Sequence record: NC_028881.1
Origin: Escherichia phage vb_EcoM-VR5
Strand: one strand, 5' to 3'
Length of the DNA stretch: 64,000 bases
Each line of letters begins with the position of its first letter. The first letter of the stretch is position 1. The notes under the pieces were generated by a model. That model saw only the letters and a program-made list of their open reading frames with translations, did not search any database and had not been told where the DNA came from. The position numbers and the translations under genes were made by a program. Positions 26,220 to 36,673 of the stretch are shown here, piece by piece.

Positions 26220-28268
26220 TTATCTGAATTTTTCCGGAAGGGCATTGATATCAGTCAATGCACACAGGATTTTATCAACTTCGTTATCTGAAGCTTCTTT
26301 AGATTCTGTAAGGAACCCAGAGAAAGATAATGTTTTGTTTACTGGTTCCAACTTACCGGATTCCAAGAACAAATCACCGTCGTAAACTACTTCGCTTTCG
26401 GCGACGATACGGTCCAGGTCCATTACTTCACACTCTAACAAGAAACGGTTAAAGGATTTAGACAGGCTAGCCGTAGTGGTCTTGTTAACTCGCAGTGTAG
26501 TACCACGTGGCAACAGAACTTCAGCCTCTTCAGGGTATTCAGACAAACTACCTGGCATAATAACCTTAATCTTCTCAATACCACGAATAACAAATGAGAT
26601 ATCAATCTTAGAATTACCTTCGGTTTTCAGTGCATTAGTTACTGTCTGGTTAGCATCTTGTGAACGCCAATCATCAGAGAATGCATGACCATCAGTATAA
26701 GTAGACGAGAAGTCATCTAATGTGATACCCATACCATTGCCGGACATTTGTCCAGGAACGTTACTAAAAATGTTAGGCTTCAACGAAGTAGAAACATAGT
26801 TACGGAAGTAGAATGTACGGCCTGTAATATTGCGACGAAGAGTATTAGAATCACCACCCTGACCACGATAAACCGTAGTACCCTTAGGCAAAGTTACACC
26901 TTTAGAGAACGCGCTATCAAGTTTCTCAATTTCACCTTCAACAAACTTAATGGAAGTATCCTCATCAGGAGTACCAAGCAAGAACGTGTTAATATCATAG
27001 AACGAGTTCATACAATATTCTGATACAGCCTGTTTTTCTTCCTTGGTAAGGTCTGCTTCTGGTTCAACGTTCTGGGCCACTTCATACGAATTGGTAAAAA
27101 CATCATCAATCATCTGAGTAATAATAGCCATAGGACGTTGAAGAGCCTGGGCCTTAACATCTACATCTACCGAAGAACCTGCAGTAATTTCACGAACAAT
27201 TCTTTGCATGATTTCGTACGAGTTTGTAGTATCAAGATTTTTAAATTCTTCAGCCATCAATCTAACGATGTCAGAAGGGTAATTTCTGGTACGTAGCTTA
27301 CCTTTAGCTTCGGATAATGCATCCATTAAAGAAGATACTTGAGGTGATAAACCGGAACTAGACGAAATATTAATATAAGCCAATTCAGATTGGGTTTTCT
27401 TAGCAAAGGTCTTCATAGAGGCTTCAAATGATTCGAATTCTTTAGATTTCTTACCATCTGATTTATATAAAGGAACTTCGTCATCATACTTAGCAAAGAT
27501 TTTAGCAGTCTCTGCATCGGCCTCAATATTTTCAGGAGTAACTGCGTATTGAGCCGCAATAGTAGCACGAACGTTTAATTTAGTACGAGAGATAACAGCC
27601 TTATCGGTACGCTTTTCTTCAACCTGCGCTACAGAAGCTACAACGGCTTCAACCTTACTTACGGCTTGGCCAGTTTTCTTGGAAACATAAACTTCGCCAA
27701 CTTTAGAATCAACTTTAGTATAAAGGTCAGCATCAATTTCCGGCATGCCTTTGATGTCTTCGATATTCGCACCACGACGTACTAAAAGAACGTAAGTATG
27801 TTTACCGCTGAACTGGAACATATCATTAACAACTTTAAACTTACCACCTGTACGAGCCATGGCCAAACGAGCCAATACACGTTGTACAGTAGGACCCTTA
27901 CCTTTCATTTTCTTAGTAGGGAAACGGAACAGAACTGCATCCATTTTAAGTTTATTTACTTGTTCATATACCGTATCGAAAATAGTATTCAATGCACCAA
28001 GTGGGTCAGAACCAAGTCCACCTTTGAGTTCAGCCGGGGCACCTTTGCTTGACAAACTCATTAGAATAACATGAACATATTTGTCACCTGGCTTAACCAT
28101 TTTAACTGCGTCTCCTTGAGACGCATAAGATACCATACGAGCCACAAGGTTATCATTACCTGGTGCTTGGATAGAGAAAATCTGTGGGATACCGGAACCT
28201 GGTTTAAGATTTGTTACTGGATAGTTTTTAGCTGAATCACTATCAAAAACTTCGTTTAAATTTTCCAT
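26220..28268 (-). CDS. alt: Alt-like ADP-ribosyltransferase, copy A
   Basis: 682 aa, the T4 Alt size; C-terminal region carries an Arg (YRGQ), an STS (YVSTSL) and an E-x-E (EAEVLLP) motif. Confidence 0.85.
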   Translation of the reverse strand: MENLNEVFDSDSAKNYPVTNLKPGSGIPQIFSIQAPGNDNLVARMVSYASQGDAVKMVKPGDKYVHVILMSLSSKGAPAELKGGLGSDPLGALNTIFDTVYEQVNKLKMDAVLFRFPTKKMKGKGPTVQRVLARLAMARTGGKFKVVNDMFQFSGKHTYVLLVRRGANIEDIKGMPEIDADLYTKVDSKVGEVYVSKKTGQAVSKVEAVVASVAQVEEKRTDKAVISRTKLNVRATIAAQYAVTPENIEADAETAKIFAKYDDEVPLYKSDGKKSKEFESFEASMKTFAKKTQSELAYINISSSSGLSPQVSSLMDALSEAKGKLRTRNYPSDIVRLMAEEFKNLDTTNSYEIMQRIVREITAGSSVDVDVKAQALQRPMAIITQMIDDVFTNSYEVAQNVEPEADLTKEEKQAVSEYCMNSFYDINTFLLGTPDEDTSIKFVEGEIEKLDSAFSKGVTLPKGTTVYRGQGGDSNTLRRNITGRTFYFRNYVSTSLKPNIFSNVPGQMSGNGMGITLDDFSSTYTDGHAFSDDWRSQDANQTVTNALKTEGNSKIDISFVIRGIEKIKVIMPGSLSEYPEEAEVLLPRGTTLRVNKTTTASLSKSFNRFLLECEVMDLDRIVAESEVVYDGDLFLESGKLEPVNKTLSFSGFLTESKEASDNEVDKILCALTDINALPEKFR

Positions 28269-28271
28269 TAT

Positions 28272-30326
28272 TTACCCTTGGATGAATTTTTCTGGCATAT
28301 CATTAAGATTCATACATGATGCTAAAAGAGGTAGTACATCAAACTTAGTTGATTTTACAAATGAGTCAAAAGATACAGGGTTTTCGGTAGTATCGAAATC
28401 ATCTTGATACACAACCAATTCACCGGTTTCCATTAACATGTTTCCATCATATACTACTGACTCTTGAAGCTCATCTGATGTCATAACTTCGGCTTGAACT
28501 AATTTATTATTAGTTTTAGAAGTACCGTCGTTATAAGAAGCATCTGTTATTTTATTAATTTTGAGCATTAACCCACGTGGAAGAATAATTTCCATTTCGT
28601 TAGAAGGAGCAAGACCTGCACCAGGGAACACCACGTTTATTTTGTGAGCACCTGAAATAGCCCAACCGATACCAACTTGGTCGTCATTAGACTTAACAAG
28701 TCCTTCATCCGATTTGTCTATGGAAACATCTAAACGGACTTCATCAGGCAGAGTACCTACTGAAGCATCTGTCATCCAAGTACCAAAAATATTAGGATAT
28801 AAAGATGTAGATACAAAGTTTCTGAAATAGAATACCTTGTTTTTAACCATTGCTTCGTAAATAGGTGGAATCATTTTCTGGGAACGATACAGTGTAATTC
28901 CTTCTGGTAATCTATCACCATTTTTAAAAGCATCATCTAAGTTATCAATAGCTTTTTCGATTTCCGGGCCAGTCAAAATACTAGAACGAACTTCTGGATT
29001 GTATATACCTAAAAGTGCATTGTTCATATCTTCATAACCGGAACCAACATACTCACGGATACCACGTTTTTGTGCTGGAGTATACTGGGTTTCATCTCGG
29101 TTATCAACAATAGAGAACATTGTCCAACCGGCAGCCAATGCAAATCCACGAATTTCTTTTTTAATGACCTTAGTCTTAGCGACGTTCCAAGAGCTTTCAG
29201 ACAATTCCATGGCTACAGTATAATCTAAATTAGAATGTTTAGCAAAGAATTTTCCTAACCAGGCACCTTTATATTCTTCAAGAACTTCGTTTAGTACTGA
29301 AGCAAAACTGCTTAATGCATCCATAGACGTTATAGGCTTACCGTGGATTTTTTGGAATGCACGAACTTTAACATCATGGTCGACTTCTTTTATTTTGCTT
29401 TTAGTTACTATTCCGCTATCGGCAAAGGCATCACCAACACCATTTATATTTGTAACTGTATTAAGAACACTTTCTAAAGAAAACGATGCGGTAGAAATAG
29501 TAGATAATTCGTTAGATTGTGGAATAAGTGGCGCGGTAGCAGGTTTACTTAATTCGGATGCAGAAGCTTCAAATTTGGTAAACATAGGTGTTTCAAAACG
29601 CGCTGATTCTAAGGATTGCGACATAGCAATAGCACGTCGTGAAATCTTGGTCTTAGTAATAACGGTTTTATCTGTACGGCGTTCTTCAACCTTAGCAATA
29701 CTACCTGCAATAGCGGTTTCTTTAGTAACCTGTACACCTTCTTTTTTGCTTACATAAACATCACCAACATCAGAATCAACTTTAGTATAAAGTTCAGCAT
29801 TAATTTCTGGAATACCTTTGATGTCTTCAATATTAGCTTGTTTACGGACAACTAAAATATAAGTATGCTTGCCAGTGAATTCATACATGGCAGGAACTAC
29901 TTTAAAACGGCCACCAGTTTTCTGTGCAACTAAACGTTGAATAAGGCGCTGTACGATAGGACCTTGTCCTTTCATTTTCTTAGTAGGAAAACGGAACATA
30001 ACCGCGTCCATACGAAGTTTTTTAACTTGCTCGTATACTACATCAAAAATGGTATTAATAGCATCAATAGGAGTTGCTCCTAAGCCACCTTTTAATTCGG
30101 CAGGGGCGCCTTTGGCTGACAGACTCATTAAAATAACGTGAGCATATTTGTCGCCTAATTTAACTTGTTTGATAGCATCACCTTCAGATGAATATGACAC
30201 CATACGTGCTACCAATTGAGACTCAACGCCGCCAATCTTCCAAATCTGTGGTACTTTAAGTTTCGGGTTCAAGTTTACAGTAGGTAATGTACCTTCAGAC
30301 TCGAACACTTCATTTAATTGGGTCAT
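28272..30326 (-). CDS. Alt-like ADP-ribosyltransferase, copy B (tandem paralog)
   Basis: 684 aa; N-terminal half near-identical in pattern to copy A; C-terminus has LYRSQ, FVSTSL and EMEIILP motifs. Confidence 0.85.
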   Translation of the reverse strand: MTQLNEVFESEGTLPTVNLNPKLKVPQIWKIGGVESQLVARMVSYSSEGDAIKQVKLGDKYAHVILMSLSAKGAPAELKGGLGATPIDAINTIFDVVYEQVKKLRMDAVMFRFPTKKMKGQGPIVQRLIQRLVAQKTGGRFKVVPAMYEFTGKHTYILVVRKQANIEDIKGIPEINAELYTKVDSDVGDVYVSKKEGVQVTKETAIAGSIAKVEERRTDKTVITKTKISRRAIAMSQSLESARFETPMFTKFEASASELSKPATAPLIPQSNELSTISTASFSLESVLNTVTNINGVGDAFADSGIVTKSKIKEVDHDVKVRAFQKIHGKPITSMDALSSFASVLNEVLEEYKGAWLGKFFAKHSNLDYTVAMELSESSWNVAKTKVIKKEIRGFALAAGWTMFSIVDNRDETQYTPAQKRGIREYVGSGYEDMNNALLGIYNPEVRSSILTGPEIEKAIDNLDDAFKNGDRLPEGITLYRSQKMIPPIYEAMVKNKVFYFRNFVSTSLYPNIFGTWMTDASVGTLPDEVRLDVSIDKSDEGLVKSNDDQVGIGWAISGAHKINVVFPGAGLAPSNEMEIILPRGLMLKINKITDASYNDGTSKTNNKLVQAEVMTSDELQESVVYDGNMLMETGELVVYQDDFDTTENPVSFDSFVKSTKFDVLPLLASCMNLNDMPEKFIQG

Positions 30327-30380: not shown

Positions 30381-30587
30381 TCAGTATAGTGGAACAATAG
30401 GGACTAAAGTTCGATATAGCTCGAAATTATATCCTTTTTCATATTTTGATAACTTTCCTGCAAATACTTCAAACTCATCACGCGAGTTGAAATCAAGGAT
30501 AGTCGTTGTTACAGAGGTAGAAACTTCACCAGAGCCGTTACCACCTTGACGTTGTGCAATAATAACTAATTCTAAATAAGCTTTCAT
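30381..30587 (-). CDS. Hypothetical small protein
   Basis: About 68 aa from the ATG at 30585-30587, which abuts the ligase stop; the track ORF extends further upstream. Confidence 0.4.
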   Translation of the reverse strand: MKAYLELVIIAQRQGGNGSGEVSTSVTTTILDFNSRDEFEVFAGKLSKYEKGYNFELYRTLVPIVPLY

Positions 30588-30588
30588 A

Positions 30589-32112
30589 TTAAAGTCCTGT
30601 CTGAGACCAATCACCAAATACGTCTTCAAACGTATCAGCTTCTGTTTTATCAAATCGCCAACCTTTAATGATTGGAAGGAAAATACCTACAGTATCAGTA
30701 CGTCCTTTAGAATGAACCCAACCATTGCATTCACAATCAGCAATACGTCCAATCAACTTACCTTCACGTGCTTGTTTCATAAGAAGTTCACGGTCTAAAT
30801 CAGGACGGTCTTCCAATGGAATCAACACCTTTTTACCTGATTTATCTTTCTTATGGGTAGTATCTTTAAAGCCGGAACCACAGTCACTTGTAATTCGACG
30901 ACAACGTGATACTAACTCGACACCACCAAGTTTGTTAGGGTCTTTAGAGTGTTCATAATAACCTACTACTTCTAAAGCGATATCGATTACTTCTTTGAAC
31001 TTGATAAGATTCTTAGAACGGCGGTTTTCCCAGTAGGAGTCCATGTTCTTAAGGATAATACCTTCCAGACCTTGGTCGACGTATTTTTTATAAACGACTT
31101 TAGCTTCAGCCAAATTGTTAACCCATTGGTTTTCAATAGCTTCAACACGTGTTGTACCATGCAATACGACATTATGAGCAACCATAAGTTCTAAGGCAGT
31201 AAAGCGTACATCATACTTATCGCCTTTAATTTTACCTTCAGAATACACTACATCTAACGGAACGTAATCCCACGCCTGTAATACCATGCCAGCAGCTTCA
31301 GTAGCAGAAATAGTTCCTTGAAGAGCTTTGTTAGCCAAGCCGTTTGATGTAGAACGATCGGCGACGGTTTGGAATTCCTTTGCCTTACTTAATTCAGGGA
31401 CTTCTTCATCAAACATGCTAAACAAGTCATTGGATGTTTTAGGTTCAACCTTAGGGGTATGGTAAACTAATTCACCATCAATCATAACACCATTAGGATG
31501 ACGTTTACGAGCTTCTTCAGTCATCACCATTAATTCGGCTGCCAAAAGATTAAGTCCTTGGTATTCATTACCACCACGGGTAAGGAATGTAACACCCGAA
31601 TCACGTACTTCAGCAAAGCAACGGGCCCCATCAGCTTTTAATTGAGCAAATGCGGGCCATTTAATATTTTTCTTAATCAGAGCTTCATCATAAGAACTAG
31701 CCAACATCTGAGGTTGTTCAGGGATTAAACCTTTCCAAACCTTGTTGGCAATAGAAATCGATGCACCACATTCAAGGTCCCGCATCATTACTCGACGTAA
31801 AACCTCAGCATCCGGACCCTTGGCATCAGCAATAATTTGGGCAAGTTCTTCAATAGCCGCATTACCTGTAATCTTACGGGTGGCTAGTGTGAACTCAGCG
31901 AAATCAAGAAGGTCTTCAAGTGTAATCATACCAAAGGATTGAGACGTAAATCCAGGTTCTGGCCACTTTTTAATACCGTAGTTTAATCGACGCGTATAAG
32001 CCATACGATAAACACGTTTAAGAAGCTCATTATCCTTTTCACGAGCAATAATAGCTTCTTTAGCTTTAGTAGAATCAATAGCAGCAATTTCGTTTAAAAT
32101 ATCTAAAATCAT
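30589..32112 (-). CDS. 30: ATP-dependent DNA ligase gp30
   Basis: 507 aa; N-terminus MIL.ILNEIA.I.STK.K...NELLKRVYR matches T4 DNA ligase from memory. Confidence 0.9.
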   Translation of the reverse strand: MILDILNEIAAIDSTKAKEAIIAREKDNELLKRVYRMAYTRRLNYGIKKWPEPGFTSQSFGMITLEDLLDFAEFTLATRKITGNAAIEELAQIIADAKGPDAEVLRRVMMRDLECGASISIANKVWKGLIPEQPQMLASSYDEALIKKNIKWPAFAQLKADGARCFAEVRDSGVTFLTRGGNEYQGLNLLAAELMVMTEEARKRHPNGVMIDGELVYHTPKVEPKTSNDLFSMFDEEVPELSKAKEFQTVADRSTSNGLANKALQGTISATEAAGMVLQAWDYVPLDVVYSEGKIKGDKYDVRFTALELMVAHNVVLHGTTRVEAIENQWVNNLAEAKVVYKKYVDQGLEGIILKNMDSYWENRRSKNLIKFKEVIDIALEVVGYYEHSKDPNKLGGVELVSRCRRITSDCGSGFKDTTHKKDKSGKKVLIPLEDRPDLDRELLMKQAREGKLIGRIADCECNGWVHSKGRTDTVGIFLPIIKGWRFDKTEADTFEDVFGDWSQTGL

Positions 32113-32396
32113 TTTACCGTCCTTACAGTTTGTGTACTTCTATTATAAGCTACTTCATCTAAAAGCTCATTTAAAGTTTTGTGGTACGATATAATACGCT
32201 TATCTTTAATATCGTATTCAGTAACATACATAAATCCACGCCGAACACATTGGATAAAGATATCTTCATCTTTGGCTTGGAAATATACAGGGTTCAATCG
32301 AAGGAATTGTCTAAGGTTTCCATAATCATGGGATTTAGGGGTTCCATCAGTAATAGTATGAACAACAAACATATTAACCTCGAGCAACCCATTCAA
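32109..32396 (-). CDS. Hypothetical protein
   Basis: 95-aa ORF overlapping its neighbours by 4 nt (operon arrangement). Confidence 0.5.
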   Translation of the reverse strand: MNGLLEVNMFVVHTITDGTPKSHDYGNLRQFLRLNPVYFQAKDEDIFIQCVRRGFMYVTEYDIKDKRIISYHKTLNELLDEVAYNRSTQTVRTVK

Positions 32397-33012
32397 CAGC
32401 CGTATTATTACGAAGAGATTCGATAGCTGCTATATCGTCCCACGAATTAACCTTTACTGCTAAATTAGGTTTAAAGTCACGTTCACCACGGGCTAACCAA
32501 TAAACTTGGATATCCATAAGAACATTAGATGCAGCATCACAGTGGTGAGCCAAATCATCGACATAAAACTTAATACGCTTACCATATGTATTTTTAGCTC
32601 TTACGAACAGGTCTTCTTTTGATTCTGAATGGCCACACATCAGAATCTCCTTGAATGCACCAGGGAACAAAGCATTCAAATTGAATTGTCTATTCAGCAG
32701 GGCATCAATTGAGTCGCCTAGCGCAGTCACGGCTACAAAATCGAAGTCTTTTTTGAGCTTGTTGATGTGTTTTAATGCGTCCATATAAGGAGACAGATAA
32801 CGAATGAAATCTGACTGATTGTATTTCTCGATTAAACGAGCGCCTAATTCGTTGTCACAATTAAACAGCTCACCTGGAGATAAGAAACGTTCGTCCTGAA
32901 TCATATTCAAAATATGTTCTAAAGGCAAATTATATTTCTGAGCGAAATAAGGCAAGCCGGACTGCCAACTTAAACATACTCCATCGATATCTGTTAAGAT
33001 AACTGGTTTCAT
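32374..33012 (-). CDS. HAD-superfamily hydrolase-like protein
   Basis: 212 aa; N-terminal ILTDIDGV (HAD motif I, DxDG[TV]) and a later FYVDD motif. Confidence 0.55.
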   Translation of the reverse strand: MKPVILTDIDGVCLSWQSGLPYFAQKYNLPLEHILNMIQDERFLSPGELFNCDNELGARLIEKYNQSDFIRYLSPYMDALKHINKLKKDFDFVAVTALGDSIDALLNRQFNLNALFPGAFKEILMCGHSESKEDLFVRAKNTYGKRIKFYVDDLAHHCDAASNVLMDIQVYWLARGERDFKPNLAVKVNSWDDIAAIESLRNNTAVEWVARG

Positions 33013-33476
33013 AATAAATCTCTCAATTTGTTTAGGATGTCGATAAACTCTTTTTCAGTTAGTATTGTATCACATTCTGTAAGGTGGCTTGCCATAGAAT
33101 GCTTTAAAACTTTACCTTTTGTAGCTTGTAAGGCGTCACGGAATCCTTTGTTTTGGAGCGCTGCTTCAAAATATGCACTTGTATACAACTCTTTCCATGC
33201 TGCAGAGTATCTTGAAAAGGGAATTCCAAGCCAGAAAAGCGTCCCACGGTCCACAGCTCTTGCATAAGCTCTTCCAGTTTGTTGTGCGACCAGTCCGGAC
33301 ATCCCAAATATACGTTTTTGTTGTTCATAATTTCTCACCTTGCACCCTTGGAGGAAGCCTTCAAGACCTCCAAACTGGATACCATCCATAACAAAAGGCC
33401 ATTTGGCAAAGTTACTTAATGCACATGATGGCCACGGGAAATTGCTTCTGATTTCTAACTCAGACATCTTTGACAC
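33009..33476 (-). CDS. NADAR (YbiA/DUF1768)-like protein
   Basis: 155 aa; LSNFAKWPFVMDG...E.FLQ..K resembles the NADAR signature SNFAAWP..DG...SEHYFQAQK. Confidence 0.5.
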   Translation of the reverse strand: MSKMSELEIRSNFPWPSCALSNFAKWPFVMDGIQFGGLEGFLQGCKVRNYEQQKRIFGMSGLVAQQTGRAYARAVDRGTLFWLGIPFSRYSAAWKELYTSAYFEAALQNKGFRDALQATKGKVLKHSMASHLTECDTILTEKEFIDILNKLRDLL

Positions 33477-33672
33477 TTATAATATCGATATCACACCAAT
33501 GGCCATAACCTGGTAGACGGTCTTCAACAGATAAACCGCTGACATATTTGAGCATCGTTGTTTTCATTATAACAGGTTCAATATCTTGACCGCCTGGGCG
33601 AACATCAGTCACACGATAAGTCACTTCGACCATTTCAGTACCTAACAATTTCTGAATCAGTTTCTTAAACAT
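33460..33672 (-). CDS. Hypothetical small protein
   Basis: 70-aa ORF in a tightly packed minus-strand series. Confidence 0.4.
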   Translation of the reverse strand: MFKKLIQKLLGTEMVEVTYRVTDVRPGGQDIEPVIMKTTMLKYVSGLSVEDRLPGYGHWCDIDIISVKDV

Positions 33673-33673
33673 A

Positions 33674-33868
33674 TTATCCTCGCTTTAAATATTTGATTAC
33701 AGACAATTCTTGTCCCATGCGTACGTCTTCAGTTCCGTCAACCCACAGGACTGCATAGGCTTCTTTAATTACTTTACCGTTAATTTTAAAAGCAGGTAAA
33801 ACCTTTGAAATCATTCCAGGAATACCTATGCCTTTTAACTGGACTGTTTGTGATAAAAATAATTTCAT
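33674..33868 (-). CDS. Hypothetical small protein
   Basis: 64-aa ORF in the same series. Confidence 0.4.
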   Translation of the reverse strand: MKLFLSQTVQLKGIGIPGMISKVLPAFKINGKVIKEAYAVLWVDGTEDVRMGQELSVIKYLKRG

Positions 33869-33875
33869 GTTAGCC

Positions 33876-34178
33876 TCAATATTTCATTTGGAAGCAACGT
33901 GGCTCGTCACATTCAATAAAGAACTTACAGTCTGCAGCAGAAATAATGATTCGCTCATCTTGACGGGCATCTGTTTTGATAGATTTCATATCATAAGACA
34001 CGTTATCATCTGGTATATAGATTTTATACACGTCGCCATTATGGGCGAAATCAACACGGAACAGCTCTAGACCTATTAAATCAGTCACAAGACTGTTTAT
34101 AGCGTAGAACTCATCAAGCTGACTAGTAGGCAAACAATACCATTTACCTTCAGTAAACTCTAACATAATTAACCTCAA
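33876..34178 (-). CDS. Hypothetical protein, paralog 1 of a tandem pair
   Basis: 100 aa ending ...FQMKY; its upstream leader (cctcaatatttcatttggaagc) is repeated before the next gene. Confidence 0.5.
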   Translation of the reverse strand: MRLIMLEFTEGKWYCLPTSQLDEFYAINSLVTDLIGLELFRVDFAHNGDVYKIYIPDDNVSYDMKSIKTDARQDERIIISAADCKFFIECDEPRCFQMKY

Positions 34179-34462
34179 TATTTCATTTGGAAGCCGTATG
34201 GCTTAACGTCACCGCCATCCATATTTGATGTATTAATTTCGCTGGCATCAACCATGGAAATATCAACATCATTGCGCAGTTTAACGATTGCTAGAGTATC
34301 GCGACCATTTACAGTGCGGAATTCTAGTGGACAAACTACATCAACATAGTTCTTAATGGAATCGCGTGTTGGTTCACACCCAGCAGGAACATTAGGGCCT
34401 TTTTTAGAGAAAACAACTTCACAGAAATTTTTACGAGTATCGAAATAAGTGGTCATAAACAT
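34175..34462 (-). CDS. Hypothetical protein, paralog 2 of a tandem pair
   Basis: 95 aa ending ...GFQMKY; shares the leader repeat. Confidence 0.5.
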   Translation of the reverse strand: MFMTTYFDTRKNFCEVVFSKKGPNVPAGCEPTRDSIKNYVDVVCPLEFRTVNGRDTLAIVKLRNDVDISMVDASEINTSNMDGGDVKPYGFQMKY

Positions 34463-34476
34463 AATATTTTCCTCAA

Positions 34477-34492
34477 GGAGGCCGAAGCCTCC
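34477..34492 (-). terminator. Hairpin GGAGGC-CGAA-GCCTCC
   Basis: GC stem with tetraloop between genes 34501..34866 and 34175..34462. Confidence 0.45.
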
Positions 34493-34500
34493 ATTTAAGA

Positions 34501-34866
34501 TTAGATATCAAACTCGTTAAGAACTACATCAAAGATTGCTTCAAGATGTTCAGGTTTAGCTCGGTTACTCAGAATATGTCGAATCCAAGTTTTAACTAAG
34601 AGTTTACGATTATCACCGTTCCAACAAGGATGAGTGCCTAAATCGCGTTCACGGAAATCATCATCTAGAGCGATTTTAAAGTTGGAACCTTCCTTAGTGA
34701 TTGAAAGAGTGATACCGTTTTCAAATCGCATATAAACGTAGTTAGGAGTCATGCACTGCTCGATTTCACATACTGAACCGTTTTCATGTTTCCACAGGCA
34801 AATAACTTCAGAAGAACCAGCGATACCATTAGAAACATATTTACGTTCGAAGTTGATGTAGTTCAT
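34501..34866 (-). CDS. Hypothetical protein
   Basis: 121-aa ORF with an early-type promoter upstream and a hairpin downstream. Confidence 0.5.
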   Translation of the reverse strand: MNYINFERKYVSNGIAGSSEVICLWKHENGSVCEIEQCMTPNYVYMRFENGITLSITKEGSNFKIALDDDFRERDLGTHPCWNGDNRKLLVKTWIRHILSNRAKPEHLEAIFDVVLNEFDI

Positions 34867-34942
34867 TTTATTATCCTTTGGTTTGTTTTCGTATTATTTG
34901 GTACAGGTCTATAATAACACAACCTGTACCAAAGTAAAACAT

Positions 34943-35275
34943 TTATTTCACAACATTCCAATTTTTCATATCAAGTTTACCAACTTTTTTCATCTGAGTA
35001 ATCAGACGTTCGGCACGCTCACGAGCAGTAACATAATAGAATTCACCGATTTTGTTTTCTTCAATACGACCTGTAATTACAGTTTTCAGTTCGTAAATCC
35101 AACCTGTAAAGAAGTTGTGAAGCTCAATAGTAAAGGTGAAATCAGTACCCATACCTTCAGTGGTTTCAACTTCAATAATATCACCTTCAACTGCTGTCAG
35201 GACCCACATGGTTTCTTGATATTCACCGTTGAAACATTTAGCTTTAACAGATGCATTCAGGTTTACAGTTTTCAT
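34943..35275 (-). CDS. Hypothetical protein
   Basis: 110-aa ORF with an early-type promoter upstream. Confidence 0.5.
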   Translation of the reverse strand: MKTVNLNASVKAKCFNGEYQETMWVLTAVEGDIIEVETTEGMGTDFTFTIELHNFFTGWIYELKTVITGRIEENKIGEFYYVTARERAERLITQMKKVGKLDMKNWNVVK

Positions 35276-35374
35276 TTTATTCTCCAGTTTGTTTTCGTAT
35301 TATTTGGTACATGTCTATAGTATCATGCCTACCGGAGATGTACACCCTTTTTTTAAAGATTTAGAAACAAAAAT

Positions 35375-35392
35375 GGGACTCCGAAGAGTCCC
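35375..35392 (-). terminator. Hairpin GGGACTC-CGAA-GAGTCCC after the 53-aa basic ORF
   Basis: 7-bp stem with tetraloop 6 nt beyond the small ORF stop. Confidence 0.5.
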
Positions 35393-35397
35393 ATAAC

Positions 35398-35559
35398 TTA
35401 TGCAATCACTTTACCGAAGCAAGCAGCATCTGCACGCAATACTGCACGAGCACGAGCTTGAAGCTTATCAACTACCTGATTGATACGCTTGTTGGACGCA
35501 CGCTTGTAACCAGCGCGTTTAGAGGTCCCGTCAACTACTTTAACTTCTTTCTTAGCCAT
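35398..35559 (-). CDS. Small basic protein (53 aa), unlisted ORF
   Basis: Hand-translated MAKKEVKVVDGTSKRAGYKRASNKRINQVVDKLQARARAVLRADAACFGKVIA; a GC hairpin (35375-35392) follows its stop. Confidence 0.4.
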   Translation of the reverse strand: MAKKEVKVVDGTSKRAGYKRASNKRINQVVDKLQARARAVLRADAACFGKVIA

Positions 35560-35954
35560 TATAAAATCTCTTTAAATGAAAATGCAGGACTTATTGGCAT
35601 TGCCTGCGCAAGCCCTCAAGGGGAACATAGGTTTTGGATATTTAACGACAGGATAACCATAAACCTCGTCATCATACTTATAGCTCTTATCTGTTGCACA
35701 CCGTTAGCTTAAAGGTTCCGGGTTCGATTTCTCGAGGATAAGATATATACTGATGGGTATATAGGCCTTGAGGCGTACTCCCGATTGGCCATCACCTCGG
35801 GGTAGCATGCACTTGCCGCTATAAAATAACATTCAAGAGGTACACCGTAAAACTGCCGGGGTCTTAAAACTATAATGATTCTCAAATCATTAATCAGACA
35901 GTTCGACGGCTCCTCGATTTTCTAGCCGCACTAAGGTAGCGAATCACCTAAAAC

Positions 35955-36203
35955 TTATTTAAGGGTAATAACAAAATGACGTACTGCTTTACGAGCTGCA
36001 GAAGCCAAAGGCTTAGCAAATTTCAGTTCATCTTTAGCTTCCAGCTCAGAAGCCAGGGCAGCCTGTACCGGGTTCAGATGTTTGAAATAACGCAGGATTT
36101 CCAGTGCTTCGGCTTCAACATCAATAGATGCGCCATAGTTTTCGTGACCGTTGTTCCAAGCGTTGCGTTGCAGTTCAAGAGCGTGATTCAGATGTTTGTT
36201 CAT
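35955..36203 (-). CDS. rIII: rIII-like lysis inhibition accessory protein
   Basis: 82 aa (the T4 rIII size) adjacent to gene 31; assignment by size and synteny only. Confidence 0.55.
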   Translation of the reverse strand: MNKHLNHALELQRNAWNNGHENYGASIDVEAEALEILRYFKHLNPVQAALASELEAKDELKFAKPLASAARKAVRHFVITLK

Positions 36204-36349
36204 TTTAGTTTCTCAATTCGAGATAAAGATTGGTGGACACGTTCTTCTGAATTTCACTTCCTTTCGGCAAGTCTCTCAGTTGTAGTCCACCGCTTAGAAT
36301 TGTTCGGTTAACTTATTATTCCGACACCCAATTCATATTATTATTTATA

Positions 36350-36673
36350 TCACTTATAAAGACACGGAATAGCTTTATAGTGACAAGTAACGAATTTCTG
36401 TTTAATTTCTTTAGGCTGTTTAATACCTAATGCAACTAATGGATGAGGCACGTTAGCAATCTTACCGACAGGAAGTGGGGTCAAATCACCTACTTCACAA
36501 AAATCTTCAGGGACATCAGGTCCTACAGAATAAACTTCACAGAGTTCAGGGATTTCACCTTGATGAAGTTTGCCAATAACGATACCTGATGCAGTAGTTT
36601 CTTCATCACCAGCTTGTTTTGGTTCGGAAACGAGAATAATATATTCTCCGACCGCTTTAATAGGAAGTTCCAT
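36350..36673 (-). CDS. 31: Head assembly co-chaperonin gp31 (GroES-like)
   Basis: 107 aa; I.AVGEY.ILVSEP.QAGDEE...[19 protein letters not shown]...[17 protein letters not shown] matches T4 gp31 from memory. Confidence 0.9.

What the first reader, a model, noticed from the sequence alone, without database searches (positions are those of the whole stretch)
32374..33476. HAD-family hydrolase and NADAR-like genes paired immediately downstream of DNA ligase
The 212-aa ORF has a canonical HAD motif I (ILTDIDGV) and a downstream DD motif; the overlapping 155-aa ORF has a NADAR/YbiA-like signature (SNFAKWPFVMDG ... E.FLQ..K). NADAR proteins are N-glycosidases, and some remove ADP-ribose from guanine bases. 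Sitting about 3 kb from two Alt-like ADP-ribosyltransferases and next to ligase, this pair could process modified nucleotides or DNA, for example reversing ADP-ribosylation of DNA imposed by a host defence. The functional link is speculative.
Basis: partly seen in the sequence, partly recalled or inferred. Interest (0 to 1): 0.55.

Follow-up and report, generated by a model that had tools for sequence, protein, structure and literature searches.

The report
Known anti-DarT enzyme beside unrelated phosphatase
The two genes are T4-type phage genes 30.3 and 30.2: 30.3 is the already published AdfN enzyme that strips host-added ADP-ribose from phage DNA, and 30.2 is an uncharacterised phosphatase that sits beside it through gene order, not because the two work together.

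Summary
Both ORFs are real genes on the minus strand of a JS98-like (Dhakavirus) T4-type phage.

**Gene 30.3 (33467..33009, 152 aa).** It is 85% identical, without gaps, to T4 gp30.3, also called AdfN. AdfN is a NADAR DNA ADP-ribosylglycohydrolase shown experimentally to defeat the DarTG1 defence (Nat Commun 2025; Toxins 2024). The window copy keeps E36, K43, H123 and the C-terminal helix. Its model matches only the three solved NADAR structures.

**Gene 30.2 (33012..32374, 212 aa).** It is a C1-capped HAD phosphatase with all four catalytic motifs invariant. It is closest to 5'(3')-deoxyribonucleotidases (NT5C). Its substrate is unknown.

**The proposed functional pair is not supported.**
- In 77 loci the HAD gene stays just upstream of DNA ligase in 73, but the NADAR gene is within 4 kb in only 38.
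- In 13 of 39 contigs holding both genes they lie 53-69 kb apart.
- One close relative has lost the adfN catalytic core while keeping 30.2 intact.
- In T4 transposon data on a DarTG1 host, 30.3 insertions vanish (log2FC -7.25) and 30.2 insertions are neutral (-0.12).

Interest is low.

The parts
33009..33467 (-). Gene 30.3 / adfN: a NADAR-superfamily DNA (guanine-N2) ADP-ribosylglycohydrolase, 152 aa from the ATG at 33467.
   Evidence: Pfam PF08010 at E=1e-63. It is 85% identical, full length and gapless, to T4 gp30.3. The AlphaFold model has pLDDT 80.5. The only meaningful Foldseek PDB hits are YbiA 2b3w (E=1.6e-5), PnNADAR 8bau and G. lovleyi NADAR 8bat. The family profile hits YbiA at E=0.004.
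33360..33362 (-). Codon for catalytic Glu36 of AdfN (GAA).
   Evidence: Invariant in alignments A2 and A3. The T4 E36A mutant is impaired (PMC11825919).
33339..33341 (-). Codon for Lys43 of AdfN (AAG).
   Evidence: Invariant in A2, and K or R in the divergent set A3. The T4 K43A mutant is impaired.
33099..33101 (-). Codon for His123 of AdfN (CAT), in the last beta-strand. This residue marks the phage gp30.3 subfamily.
   Evidence: Invariant in A2 and A3. Predicted strand E120-123. The subfamily definition comes from PMC11125620.
32374..33012 (-). Gene 30.2: a C1-capped HAD-superfamily phosphatase, NT5C-like, 212 aa. Its start overlaps the stop of 30.3 by 4 nt (ATGA).
32983..32991 (-). HAD motif I, D8-I-D10. 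D8 is the nucleophile and D10 the general acid/base.
   Evidence: D8 and D10 are invariant across A1 (31 sequences) and A4 (40 sequences at 21-43% identity).
32554..32559 (-). HAD motif IV, D152-D153, which binds Mg2+.
   Evidence: Both are invariant in A1, and D153 is invariant in A4.
32109..32372 (-). Context: gene 30.1 (DUF3045). It starts 1 nt after the 30.2 stop and overlaps the ligase start by 4 nt.
   Evidence: Pfam PF11243 at E=9e-20. Sequence read.
30589..32112 (-). Context: gene 30, ATP-dependent DNA ligase. This is the conserved downstream neighbour of the HAD gene.
   Evidence: Pfam PF01068 at E=7e-23. Ligase lies downstream of the HAD gene on the same strand in 73 of 77 loci, with a median gap of 265 nt.
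33460..33672 (-). Context: gene 30.4 (70 aa, unknown function). Its end overlaps the 30.3 start by 8 nt.
   Evidence: phrog_2042 at E=2e-30. T4 annotation. T4 30.4 insertions are mildly depleted on DarTG1 (log2FC -1.79, q=0.014).

Best explanation
The region holds two independent early genes of a JS98-like T4-type phage. They are transcribed leftward in one tightly packed block: 30.4, 30.3, 30.2, 30.1, then 30 (ligase).

**Gene 30.3 is adfN.** When the host DarT1 toxin ADP-ribosylates guanines in replicating phage DNA, AdfN hydrolyses the N-glycosidic bond, releases ADP-ribose and restores replication. It is a NADAR enzyme with catalytic Glu36, Lys43 and the phage-type His123. This mechanism was shown for the T4 orthologue and is inferred here from 85% identity and conserved catalytic residues.

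**Gene 30.2 is a Mg2+-dependent HAD phosphomonoesterase.** It should form an aspartyl-phosphate intermediate on D8, with D10 as acid/base, T96 and K132 binding phosphate, and D152/D153 binding metal. A five-helix C1 cap closes over the active site. This architecture and its closest relatives (NT5C 5'(3')-deoxyribonucleotidases) point to a small nucleotide-monophosphate substrate. The substrate and the biological role are inferred, not shown.

**The adjacency is gene order, not a functional module.** In T4-like phages the HAD gene belongs to the conserved block just upstream of ligase. The NADAR gene sits next to it only in some lineages.
For: AdfN identity:
- Pfam PF08010 at 213.6 bits.
- 129 of 152 residues identical to T4 gp30.3 with no gaps. 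E36, K43 and the C-terminal helix are present.
- E36 and H123 are invariant in divergent homologues.
- Foldseek returns only the three NADAR structures. The family profile returns only YbiA.
- Function is published for the T4 protein: in vitro de-ADP-ribosylation of DarT1-modified DNA, loss of DarTG1 resistance in the deletion mutant, and complementation. Transposon insertions in 30.3 are lost on DarTG1, log2FC -7.25.

HAD identity:
- All four motifs are invariant in 31 family members. D8, D10, K132 and D153 stay invariant down to 21% identity.
- Model pLDDT 93.9, with five helices between motifs I and II.
- HAD fold hits at probability 1.0, including the deoxyribonucleotidases cdN and mdN.
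- NT5C is the only Pfam family seen for the window protein, and it is the commonest family among distant relatives, 17 of 40, best E=4e-10.

Independence of the two genes:
- Ligase is downstream in 73 of 77 HAD loci, but the NADAR gene is upstream in only 38.
- The genes are 53-69 kb apart in 13 of 39 contigs that hold both.
- 54 of 80 NADAR loci have no HAD gene within 4 kb.
- There is no phosphatase beside the NADAR gene at its alternative position.
- A relative has adfN with its catalytic core deleted and 30.2 intact.
- T4 30.2 insertions are neutral on DarTG1 (log2FC -0.12, q=1), in LB and in M9.
Against: No activity was measured for the window's own proteins.

T4 AdfN fails to work in uninfected cells or with non-T-even phages, and the authors suspect an unidentified T-even factor. 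Redundancy could mask a contribution from gp30.2 in the transposon data.

The two genes are translationally coupled (ATGA overlap) in Tevenvirinae-type genomes, and both are near-universal in T4-like phages (1508 and 1436 phage records).
Confidence: 0.8

Rival explanations
1. The two genes form a functional NADAR-HAD module. In this view gp30.2 either processes the ADP-ribose (or a phosphorylated derivative) released by AdfN, or it is the unidentified T-even-specific factor that AdfN needs in order to work in vivo.
For: The 4-nt ATGA overlap implies co-translation in T4- and JS98-like genomes. The genes abut in 17 of 77 loci. T4 AdfN needs an unknown T-even factor. Host ADP-ribosylglycohydrolase (ARG) neighbourhoods are often coupled to phosphatases, including HAD 5'-nucleotidases (PMC9503650).
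Against: T4 30.2 transposon mutants are fully fit on DarTG1 (log2FC -0.12, p=0.61, 71 sites), while 30.3 mutants are lost. Adjacency is absent in about half of T4-like lineages, where the genes are 53-69 kb apart. There is no phosphatase next to the NADAR gene at its other position. The adfN core is deleted in a relative whose 30.2 is intact. Tight overlaps are typical of the whole 30.4-to-30 block and not special to this pair.
Confidence: 0.05
2. gp30.2 is a DNA-end 3'-phosphatase that prepares nicks for the adjacent DNA ligase, forming an end-healing and sealing pair like the phosphatase domain of T4 Pnkp.
Against: The model has a roughly 65-80-residue helical C1 cap between motifs I and II. 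From established HAD knowledge (Burroughs et al. 2006), such caps restrict the site to small molecules, and polynucleotide phosphatases are capless. The Pnkp hits align only about 125-131 core residues. Gene order is broadly conserved in T4-like genomes, so adjacency is weak evidence. 30.2 is non-essential in T4 while ligase is essential.
Confidence: 0.1
3. gp30.2 is a conditional counter-defence enzyme. In this view it dephosphorylates a nucleotide-derived immune signal or a toxic or modified nucleotide produced by a host defence that E. coli K-12 lacks.
For: The gene is conserved in about 1400 T4-like phage records, yet it is dispensable on K-12 in LB, in M9 and with DarTG1. That pattern is typical of anti-defence genes. 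It lies in an early-gene region that also holds adfN and the Alt ADP-ribosyltransferases. Its fold is nucleotidase-like.
Against: There is no direct evidence. Conservation next to ligase across very divergent phages looks more like a housekeeping or accessory nucleotide-metabolism gene than a fast-evolving anti-defence gene. The catalytic core is highly conserved.
Confidence: 0.15

Closest known systems
T4 gp30.3 = AdfN (anti-DarT factor NADAR), Johannesman et al., Nat Commun 2025 (PMC11825919). In vitro activity in Toxins 2024 (PMC11125620).
   Same: The two proteins are the same length (152 aa) and 85% identical with no gaps. Both have E36, K43, H123 and the C-terminal helix. Both lie between 30.4 and 30.2. 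Both have the NADAR fold.
   Different: There are 23 substitutions, several of them in the last 30 residues (for example HLTECD against GLTKDD). Activity and DarTG1 protection have not been measured for this allele or for the JS98-like host range.
DarG1-type NADAR antitoxin (Geobacter lovleyi, PDB 8bat) and E. coli YbiA (PDB 2b3w)
   Same: They share the fold and the SNF-x-(7-16)-EGxxQxxK-type active-site motif. They share the guanine-ADP-ribose glycohydrolase chemistry (literature).
   Different: The window gene is an orphan with no DarT partner. It has His rather than Asp or Glu in the last strand. The T4-type enzyme does not neutralise DarT1 in uninfected cells. There is no direct Pfam PF08719 hit.
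T4 gp30.2 (278 aa, uncharacterised; PHROG 420)
   Same: The HAD core is 74% identical over 194 residues. The position and the ATGA overlap with 30.3 are the same.
   Different: The window protein is 212 aa. It lacks the roughly 70-80-residue variable C-terminal tail found in T4 and many relatives.
NT5C family 5'(3')-deoxyribonucleotidases (human and mouse cdN/mdN; S. epidermidis 3bwv; Pfam PF06941)
   Different: The window protein scores below Pfam's gathering score (13.3 against 24.8 bits). Identity to solved members is about 16-18%. Substrate-contact residues could not be mapped. The family has its own invariant residues (W16, R108, N111) of unknown role.

Membership tests
Phage gp30.3 / AdfN subfamily of the NADAR superfamily | Match to Pfam PF08010 (Phage_30_3) above its gathering score | tested here: met
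   213.6 bits against a cut-off of 36, E=1.1e-63, covering profile positions 2-138 of 138.
Phage gp30.3 / AdfN subfamily of the NADAR superfamily | Direct match to the general NADAR/YbiA Pfam model (PF08719) | tested here: not met
   No PF08719 hit at E<=0.1. Single-sequence phmmer against YbiA gives only E=0.56. The link appears at profile level (E=0.004) and at fold level.
Phage gp30.3 / AdfN subfamily of the NADAR superfamily | [quoted passage not shown] | tested here: met
   The model has pLDDT 80.5. The top three Foldseek PDB hits are 2b3w (E=1.6e-5, TM 0.65), 8bau (probability 0.99) and 8bat (probability 0.98). All other hits have probability <=0.06.
Phage gp30.3 / AdfN subfamily of the NADAR superfamily | Catalytic Glu and Lys (T4 E36 and K43) | tested here: met
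   Both are present at the same positions. E36 is invariant, and K43 is K or R across divergent homologues.
Phage gp30.3 / AdfN subfamily of the NADAR superfamily | Histidine in the last beta-strand, the marker of the phage subfamily (PMC11125620) | tested here: met
   H123 in 'KVLKHS' is invariant in A2 and A3. The predicted strand is E120-123.
Phage gp30.3 / AdfN subfamily of the NADAR superfamily | Intact C-terminal helix (lost in the inactive RB69 allele) | tested here: met
   The alignment to T4 runs full length to residue 152. Helix H138-151 is predicted.
Phage gp30.3 / AdfN subfamily of the NADAR superfamily | Removes ADP-ribose from guanine in DNA and protects the phage from DarTG1 | not testable with these tools
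   Shown only for the T4 orthologue. Inferred here from 85% identity.
HAD superfamily phosphatase | Motif I DxD (nucleophile and acid/base), motif II T/S, motif III K, motif IV DD | tested here: met
   D8 and D10, K132 and D152/D153 are invariant, and T96 is nearly invariant, in 31 family members. D8, D10, K132 and D153 are invariant in 40 distant relatives.
HAD superfamily phosphatase | Rossmann-like HAD core fold with a cap | tested here: met
HAD superfamily phosphatase | Any Pfam or NCBIfam HAD model above its curated cut-off | tested here: not met
   Only NT5C at 13.3 bits (cut-off 24.8). No NCBIfam hit.
NT5C 5'(3')-deoxyribonucleotidase family (PF06941) | Sequence membership, direct or transitive | tested here: inconclusive
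   The direct match is below the cut-off. Transitively, 17 of 40 relatives found by the family profile hit NT5C (best E=4e-10), against 5 for HAD_2 and 4 for Hydrolase.
NT5C 5'(3')-deoxyribonucleotidase family (PF06941) | Closest structural neighbours are deoxyribonucleotidases | tested here: inconclusive
NT5C 5'(3')-deoxyribonucleotidase family (PF06941) | Dephosphorylates (deoxy)nucleoside monophosphates | not testable with these tools
Proposed NADAR-HAD functional module | Adjacency conserved across lineages | tested here: not met
   The NADAR gene is within 4 kb in 38 of 77 HAD loci. The HAD gene is within 4 kb in 26 of 80 NADAR loci. The genes are 53-69 kb apart in 13 of 39 shared contigs.
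Proposed NADAR-HAD functional module | Both genes needed under the same selective condition (DarTG1) | tested here: not met
   Published T4 transposon data read here: 30.3 log2FC -7.25 (q=0) and 30.2 log2FC -0.12 (q=1).

The most novel reading that the evidence does not exclude
gp30.2 may define a large, unstudied branch of NT5C-like HAD phosphatases. The branch has about 1300 cluster representatives and is present in about 1400 T4-like phage genomes, almost always just upstream of DNA ligase. Its real substrate could be a defence-related or damaged nucleotide, which would make it a conditional counter-defence or nucleotide-pool-sanitising enzyme that shows no phenotype on laboratory K-12. A weaker variant of this reading is that gp30.2 or the small upstream gene 30.4 contributes to the unexplained T-even specificity of AdfN.
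Probability: 0.15. Interest if true: 0.5.

Novelty: already known. Interest (0 to 1): 0.15.

Why it matters
It shows that reading raw sequence can recover real biology. But it was demonstrated experimentally for the T4 orthologue in 2024-2025, so this locus adds only another intact allele in a JS98-like phage.

The residual value lies in the neighbour. gp30.2 is a widespread, catalytically intact phosphatase linked to ligase, and it has no known function and no literature. This analysis narrows what it is (NT5C-like, small-molecule substrate). It also shows what it is not: a required partner of AdfN.

Tried and rejected
- Direct Pfam and NCBIfam assignment. There was no NADAR (PF08719) hit and no HAD model above its cut-off, and NCBIfam returned nothing. 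I had to use family profiles and folds instead.
- Single-sequence and profile searches of gp30.2 against PDB sequences. They gave only non-significant hits (cdN at E=0.25-0.31, plus spurious TPR and clathrin-adaptor hits).
- Literature searches for 'gp30.2' and for '30.2 / phage T4 / haloacid dehalogenase'. Both found no papers.
- Pfam scan of longer fusion-like relatives of gp30.2 (P0197, P0241, P0143, P0188 and others). No informative extra domains appeared.
- Source names for 10 distant relatives. They are nearly all unnamed metagenomic singletons.
- Promoter and terminator scan of 30400-36400. It found fewer promoter-like sites than in shuffled sequence and nothing that separates 30.3 from 30.2.
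- Neighbours of the NADAR gene at its alternative position in phage Moon. There is no phosphatase there, and the downstream gene is a DUF1190 protein.
- Supplement part 17 of the HIDEN-SEQ table missed the 30.x rows. Part 16 supplied them.
- I considered gp30.2 as the missing T-even cofactor of AdfN and rejected it on the transposon data.

Full report
**What is there.** The window is a T4-type myovirus closest to the JS98/QL01/ESCO10 group (Dhakavirus). The 4-kb stretch around the finding is about 90-95% identical to those genomes, and their records label the genes 30, 30.1, 30.2, 30.3 and so on. All genes here are on the minus strand.

The order in the direction of transcription is:
- 30.4 (33672..33460)
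- 30.3 (33467..33009)
- 30.2 (33012..32374)
- 30.1 (32372..32109)
- gene 30, DNA ligase (32112..30589)
- two Alt-like ADP-ribosyltransferases (30326..28272 and 28268..26220)

This matches T4. The two ORFs therefore lie upstream of ligase, not downstream, and 30.1 sits between them and ligase. The junctions along the block are an 8-nt overlap, a 4-nt overlap (ATGA), a 1-nt spacer and a 4-nt overlap. The 30.3/30.2 overlap is therefore typical of the whole block.

**Gene 30.3 is adfN.**
- The ORF matches Pfam PF08010 (Phage_30_3) at E=1e-63. It does not match the general NADAR model.
- From the ATG at 33467 it is 152 aa and aligns with T4 gp30.3 over its full length, with 129 of 152 residues identical and no gaps.
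- A family profile finds E. coli YbiA as its only significant PDB sequence match (E=0.004).
- An AlphaFold model (pLDDT 80.5) matches only the three solved NADAR structures. These are YbiA 2b3w, Phytophthora NADAR with ADP-ribose 8bau, and the Geobacter DarG1-type NADAR 8bat. Everything else is noise.
- The catalytic Glu36 and Lys43 are present, as is His123 in the last strand, which marks phage gp30.3-type NADARs. Glu36 and His123 are invariant, and position 43 is K or R, in homologues down to 35% identity.

The biology is published. T4 gp30.3 removes ADP-ribose from guanine-modified DNA in vitro (PMC11125620). It was renamed AdfN after genetic mapping, deletion, complementation and mutagenesis showed that it protects T-even phages from DarTG1. 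RB69 is sensitive because its allele lacks the last 15 residues (PMC11825919). A T4 transposon screen confirms it. The window allele has the full C-terminal helix, so it is expected to be active.

**Gene 30.2 is a HAD phosphatase of the deoxyribonucleotidase type.**
- It matches PHROG 420, annotated 'unknown function', at E=1e-70. It is 74% identical to the core of T4 gp30.2. The T4 protein carries an extra, variable C-terminal tail of about 70-80 residues.
- In 31 family members the four HAD motifs are conserved. D8/D10, K132 and D152/D153 are invariant, and T96 is nearly invariant.
- The model is confident (pLDDT 93.9). It shows five helices inserted between the first two core strands, which is a C1 cap.
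- A full profile search found 1283 cluster representatives. Of 40 distant ones at 21-43% identity, 17 hit Pfam NT5C (best E=4e-10), against 5 and 4 for the generic HAD models.
- NT5C is also the only Pfam family that the window protein touches, and it does so below the cut-off.

The DxD motif and the cap point to a phosphomonoesterase acting on a small molecule, most likely a nucleoside monophosphate. This is an inference. No paper mentions gp30.2.

**Are the two genes a functional pair?** Both are near-universal in T4-like phages, with 1508 and 1436 phage records and matching host genera. Their linkage, however, is not conserved.
- In 77 loci anchored on the HAD gene, ligase lies downstream on the same strand in 73. 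The median gap is 265 nt, usually filled by 30.1.
- In the same 77 loci, a gp30.3 homologue lies upstream within 4 kb in only 38. It abuts in 17 and is 0.5-1.2 kb away in 16.
- In 80 loci anchored on the NADAR gene, only 26 have the HAD gene nearby.
- Of 39 contigs present in both sets, 13 have the two genes 53-69 kb apart. These include phages Moon, PG7 and CBH8.
- At that second position the NADAR gene has no phosphatase neighbour.
- One JS98-like relative carries an in-frame deletion of about 99 nt. It removes the AdfN catalytic core, while the adjacent 30.2 stays 99% identical.

The published T4 transposon tables settle the point.

| Gene | Condition | TA sites | Mean reads, control → test | log2FC | q |
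|---|---|---|---|---|---|
| 30.3 | DarTG1 host | 28 | 261 → 0.7 | -7.25 | 0 |
| 30.2 | DarTG1 host | 71 | 271.5 → 249.8 | -0.12 | 1 |
| 30.2 | LB vs M9 | 71 | 329.2 → 306.7 | -0.10 | 1 |

30.2 is also non-essential on K-12, with insertions at 72 of 72 TA sites.

The AdfN authors do report that the T4 enzyme works only during a T-even infection, and they suspect an extra phage factor. These data argue that gp30.2 is not that factor.

**Verdict.**
- The NADAR interpretation is right but already known.
- The HAD call is right at superfamily level, and this analysis refines it to an NT5C-like phosphatase of unknown substrate.
- The proposed functional link is not supported.

Interest is low. The only open thread is the function of the conserved, ligase-linked phosphatase.

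Noticed in passing
window 33460..33672 (-), gene 30.4 homologue: In the published T4 transposon data on a DarTG1 host, 30.4 is significantly depleted (log2FC -1.79, q=0.014). This gene lies just upstream of adfN and overlaps its start by 8 nt. The likeliest cause is a polar effect on adfN, but a helper role is not excluded. A 30.4 homologue also sits directly upstream of the HAD gene in some phages whose NADAR gene is elsewhere (L018, L019, L030).
   Followed up: partly
L090 3500-4400 (same contig as L003, IMGVR_UViG_2974741249_000001): A JS98-like relative has an in-frame deletion of about 99 nt in adfN. It removes residues about 9-43, including the SNFA motif, E36 and K43, while 30.4 and 30.2 are intact. 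Other database homologues are also truncated, at 89-126 aa, for example in phages UGJNEcP4 and SV76. Natural loss of adfN therefore seems common.
   Followed up: partly
IMG/VR contigs (for example L146 and L025, Citrobacter phage Moon): The gp30.3-type NADAR gene occupies two alternative positions in T4-like genomes. One is next to 30.2 and ligase. The other is about 53-69 kb away, followed by a DUF1190 gene. This implies relocation or independent insertion.
   Followed up: partly
window 26220..28268 and 28272..30326 (-): There are two tandem Alt-like ADP-ribosyltransferase paralogues of 682 and 684 aa, both matching PF03496. The T4 stretch shown here lists a single alt gene after alt.1.
   Followed up: no
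window 33104..33328 (-): A 74-aa ATG ORF lies in another frame inside adfN. It corresponds in position to the T4-annotated internal gene 30.3'. I did not test whether it is expressed or merely carried along by nucleotide conservation.
   Followed up: no
window 32374..32440 (-), C-terminus of gp30.2; alignment A1 columns 210-400: The gp30.2 family has a highly variable C-terminal tail. Proteins range from about 200 to about 350 aa. The window allele (212 aa) lacks the tail that T4 has (278 aa). One metagenomic member (P0012, 302 aa) is fused to a DUF3045 (30.1) domain.
   Followed up: no
window 35373..35394 (-): This is the strongest terminator-like hairpin in the region (9-bp stem with 5 GC pairs, followed by a T-run). 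It lies between two small ORFs (35398..35559 and 34943..35275), upstream of the block that runs from the 30.7-like gene down to ligase, and may mark the start of that early transcription unit.
   Followed up: no
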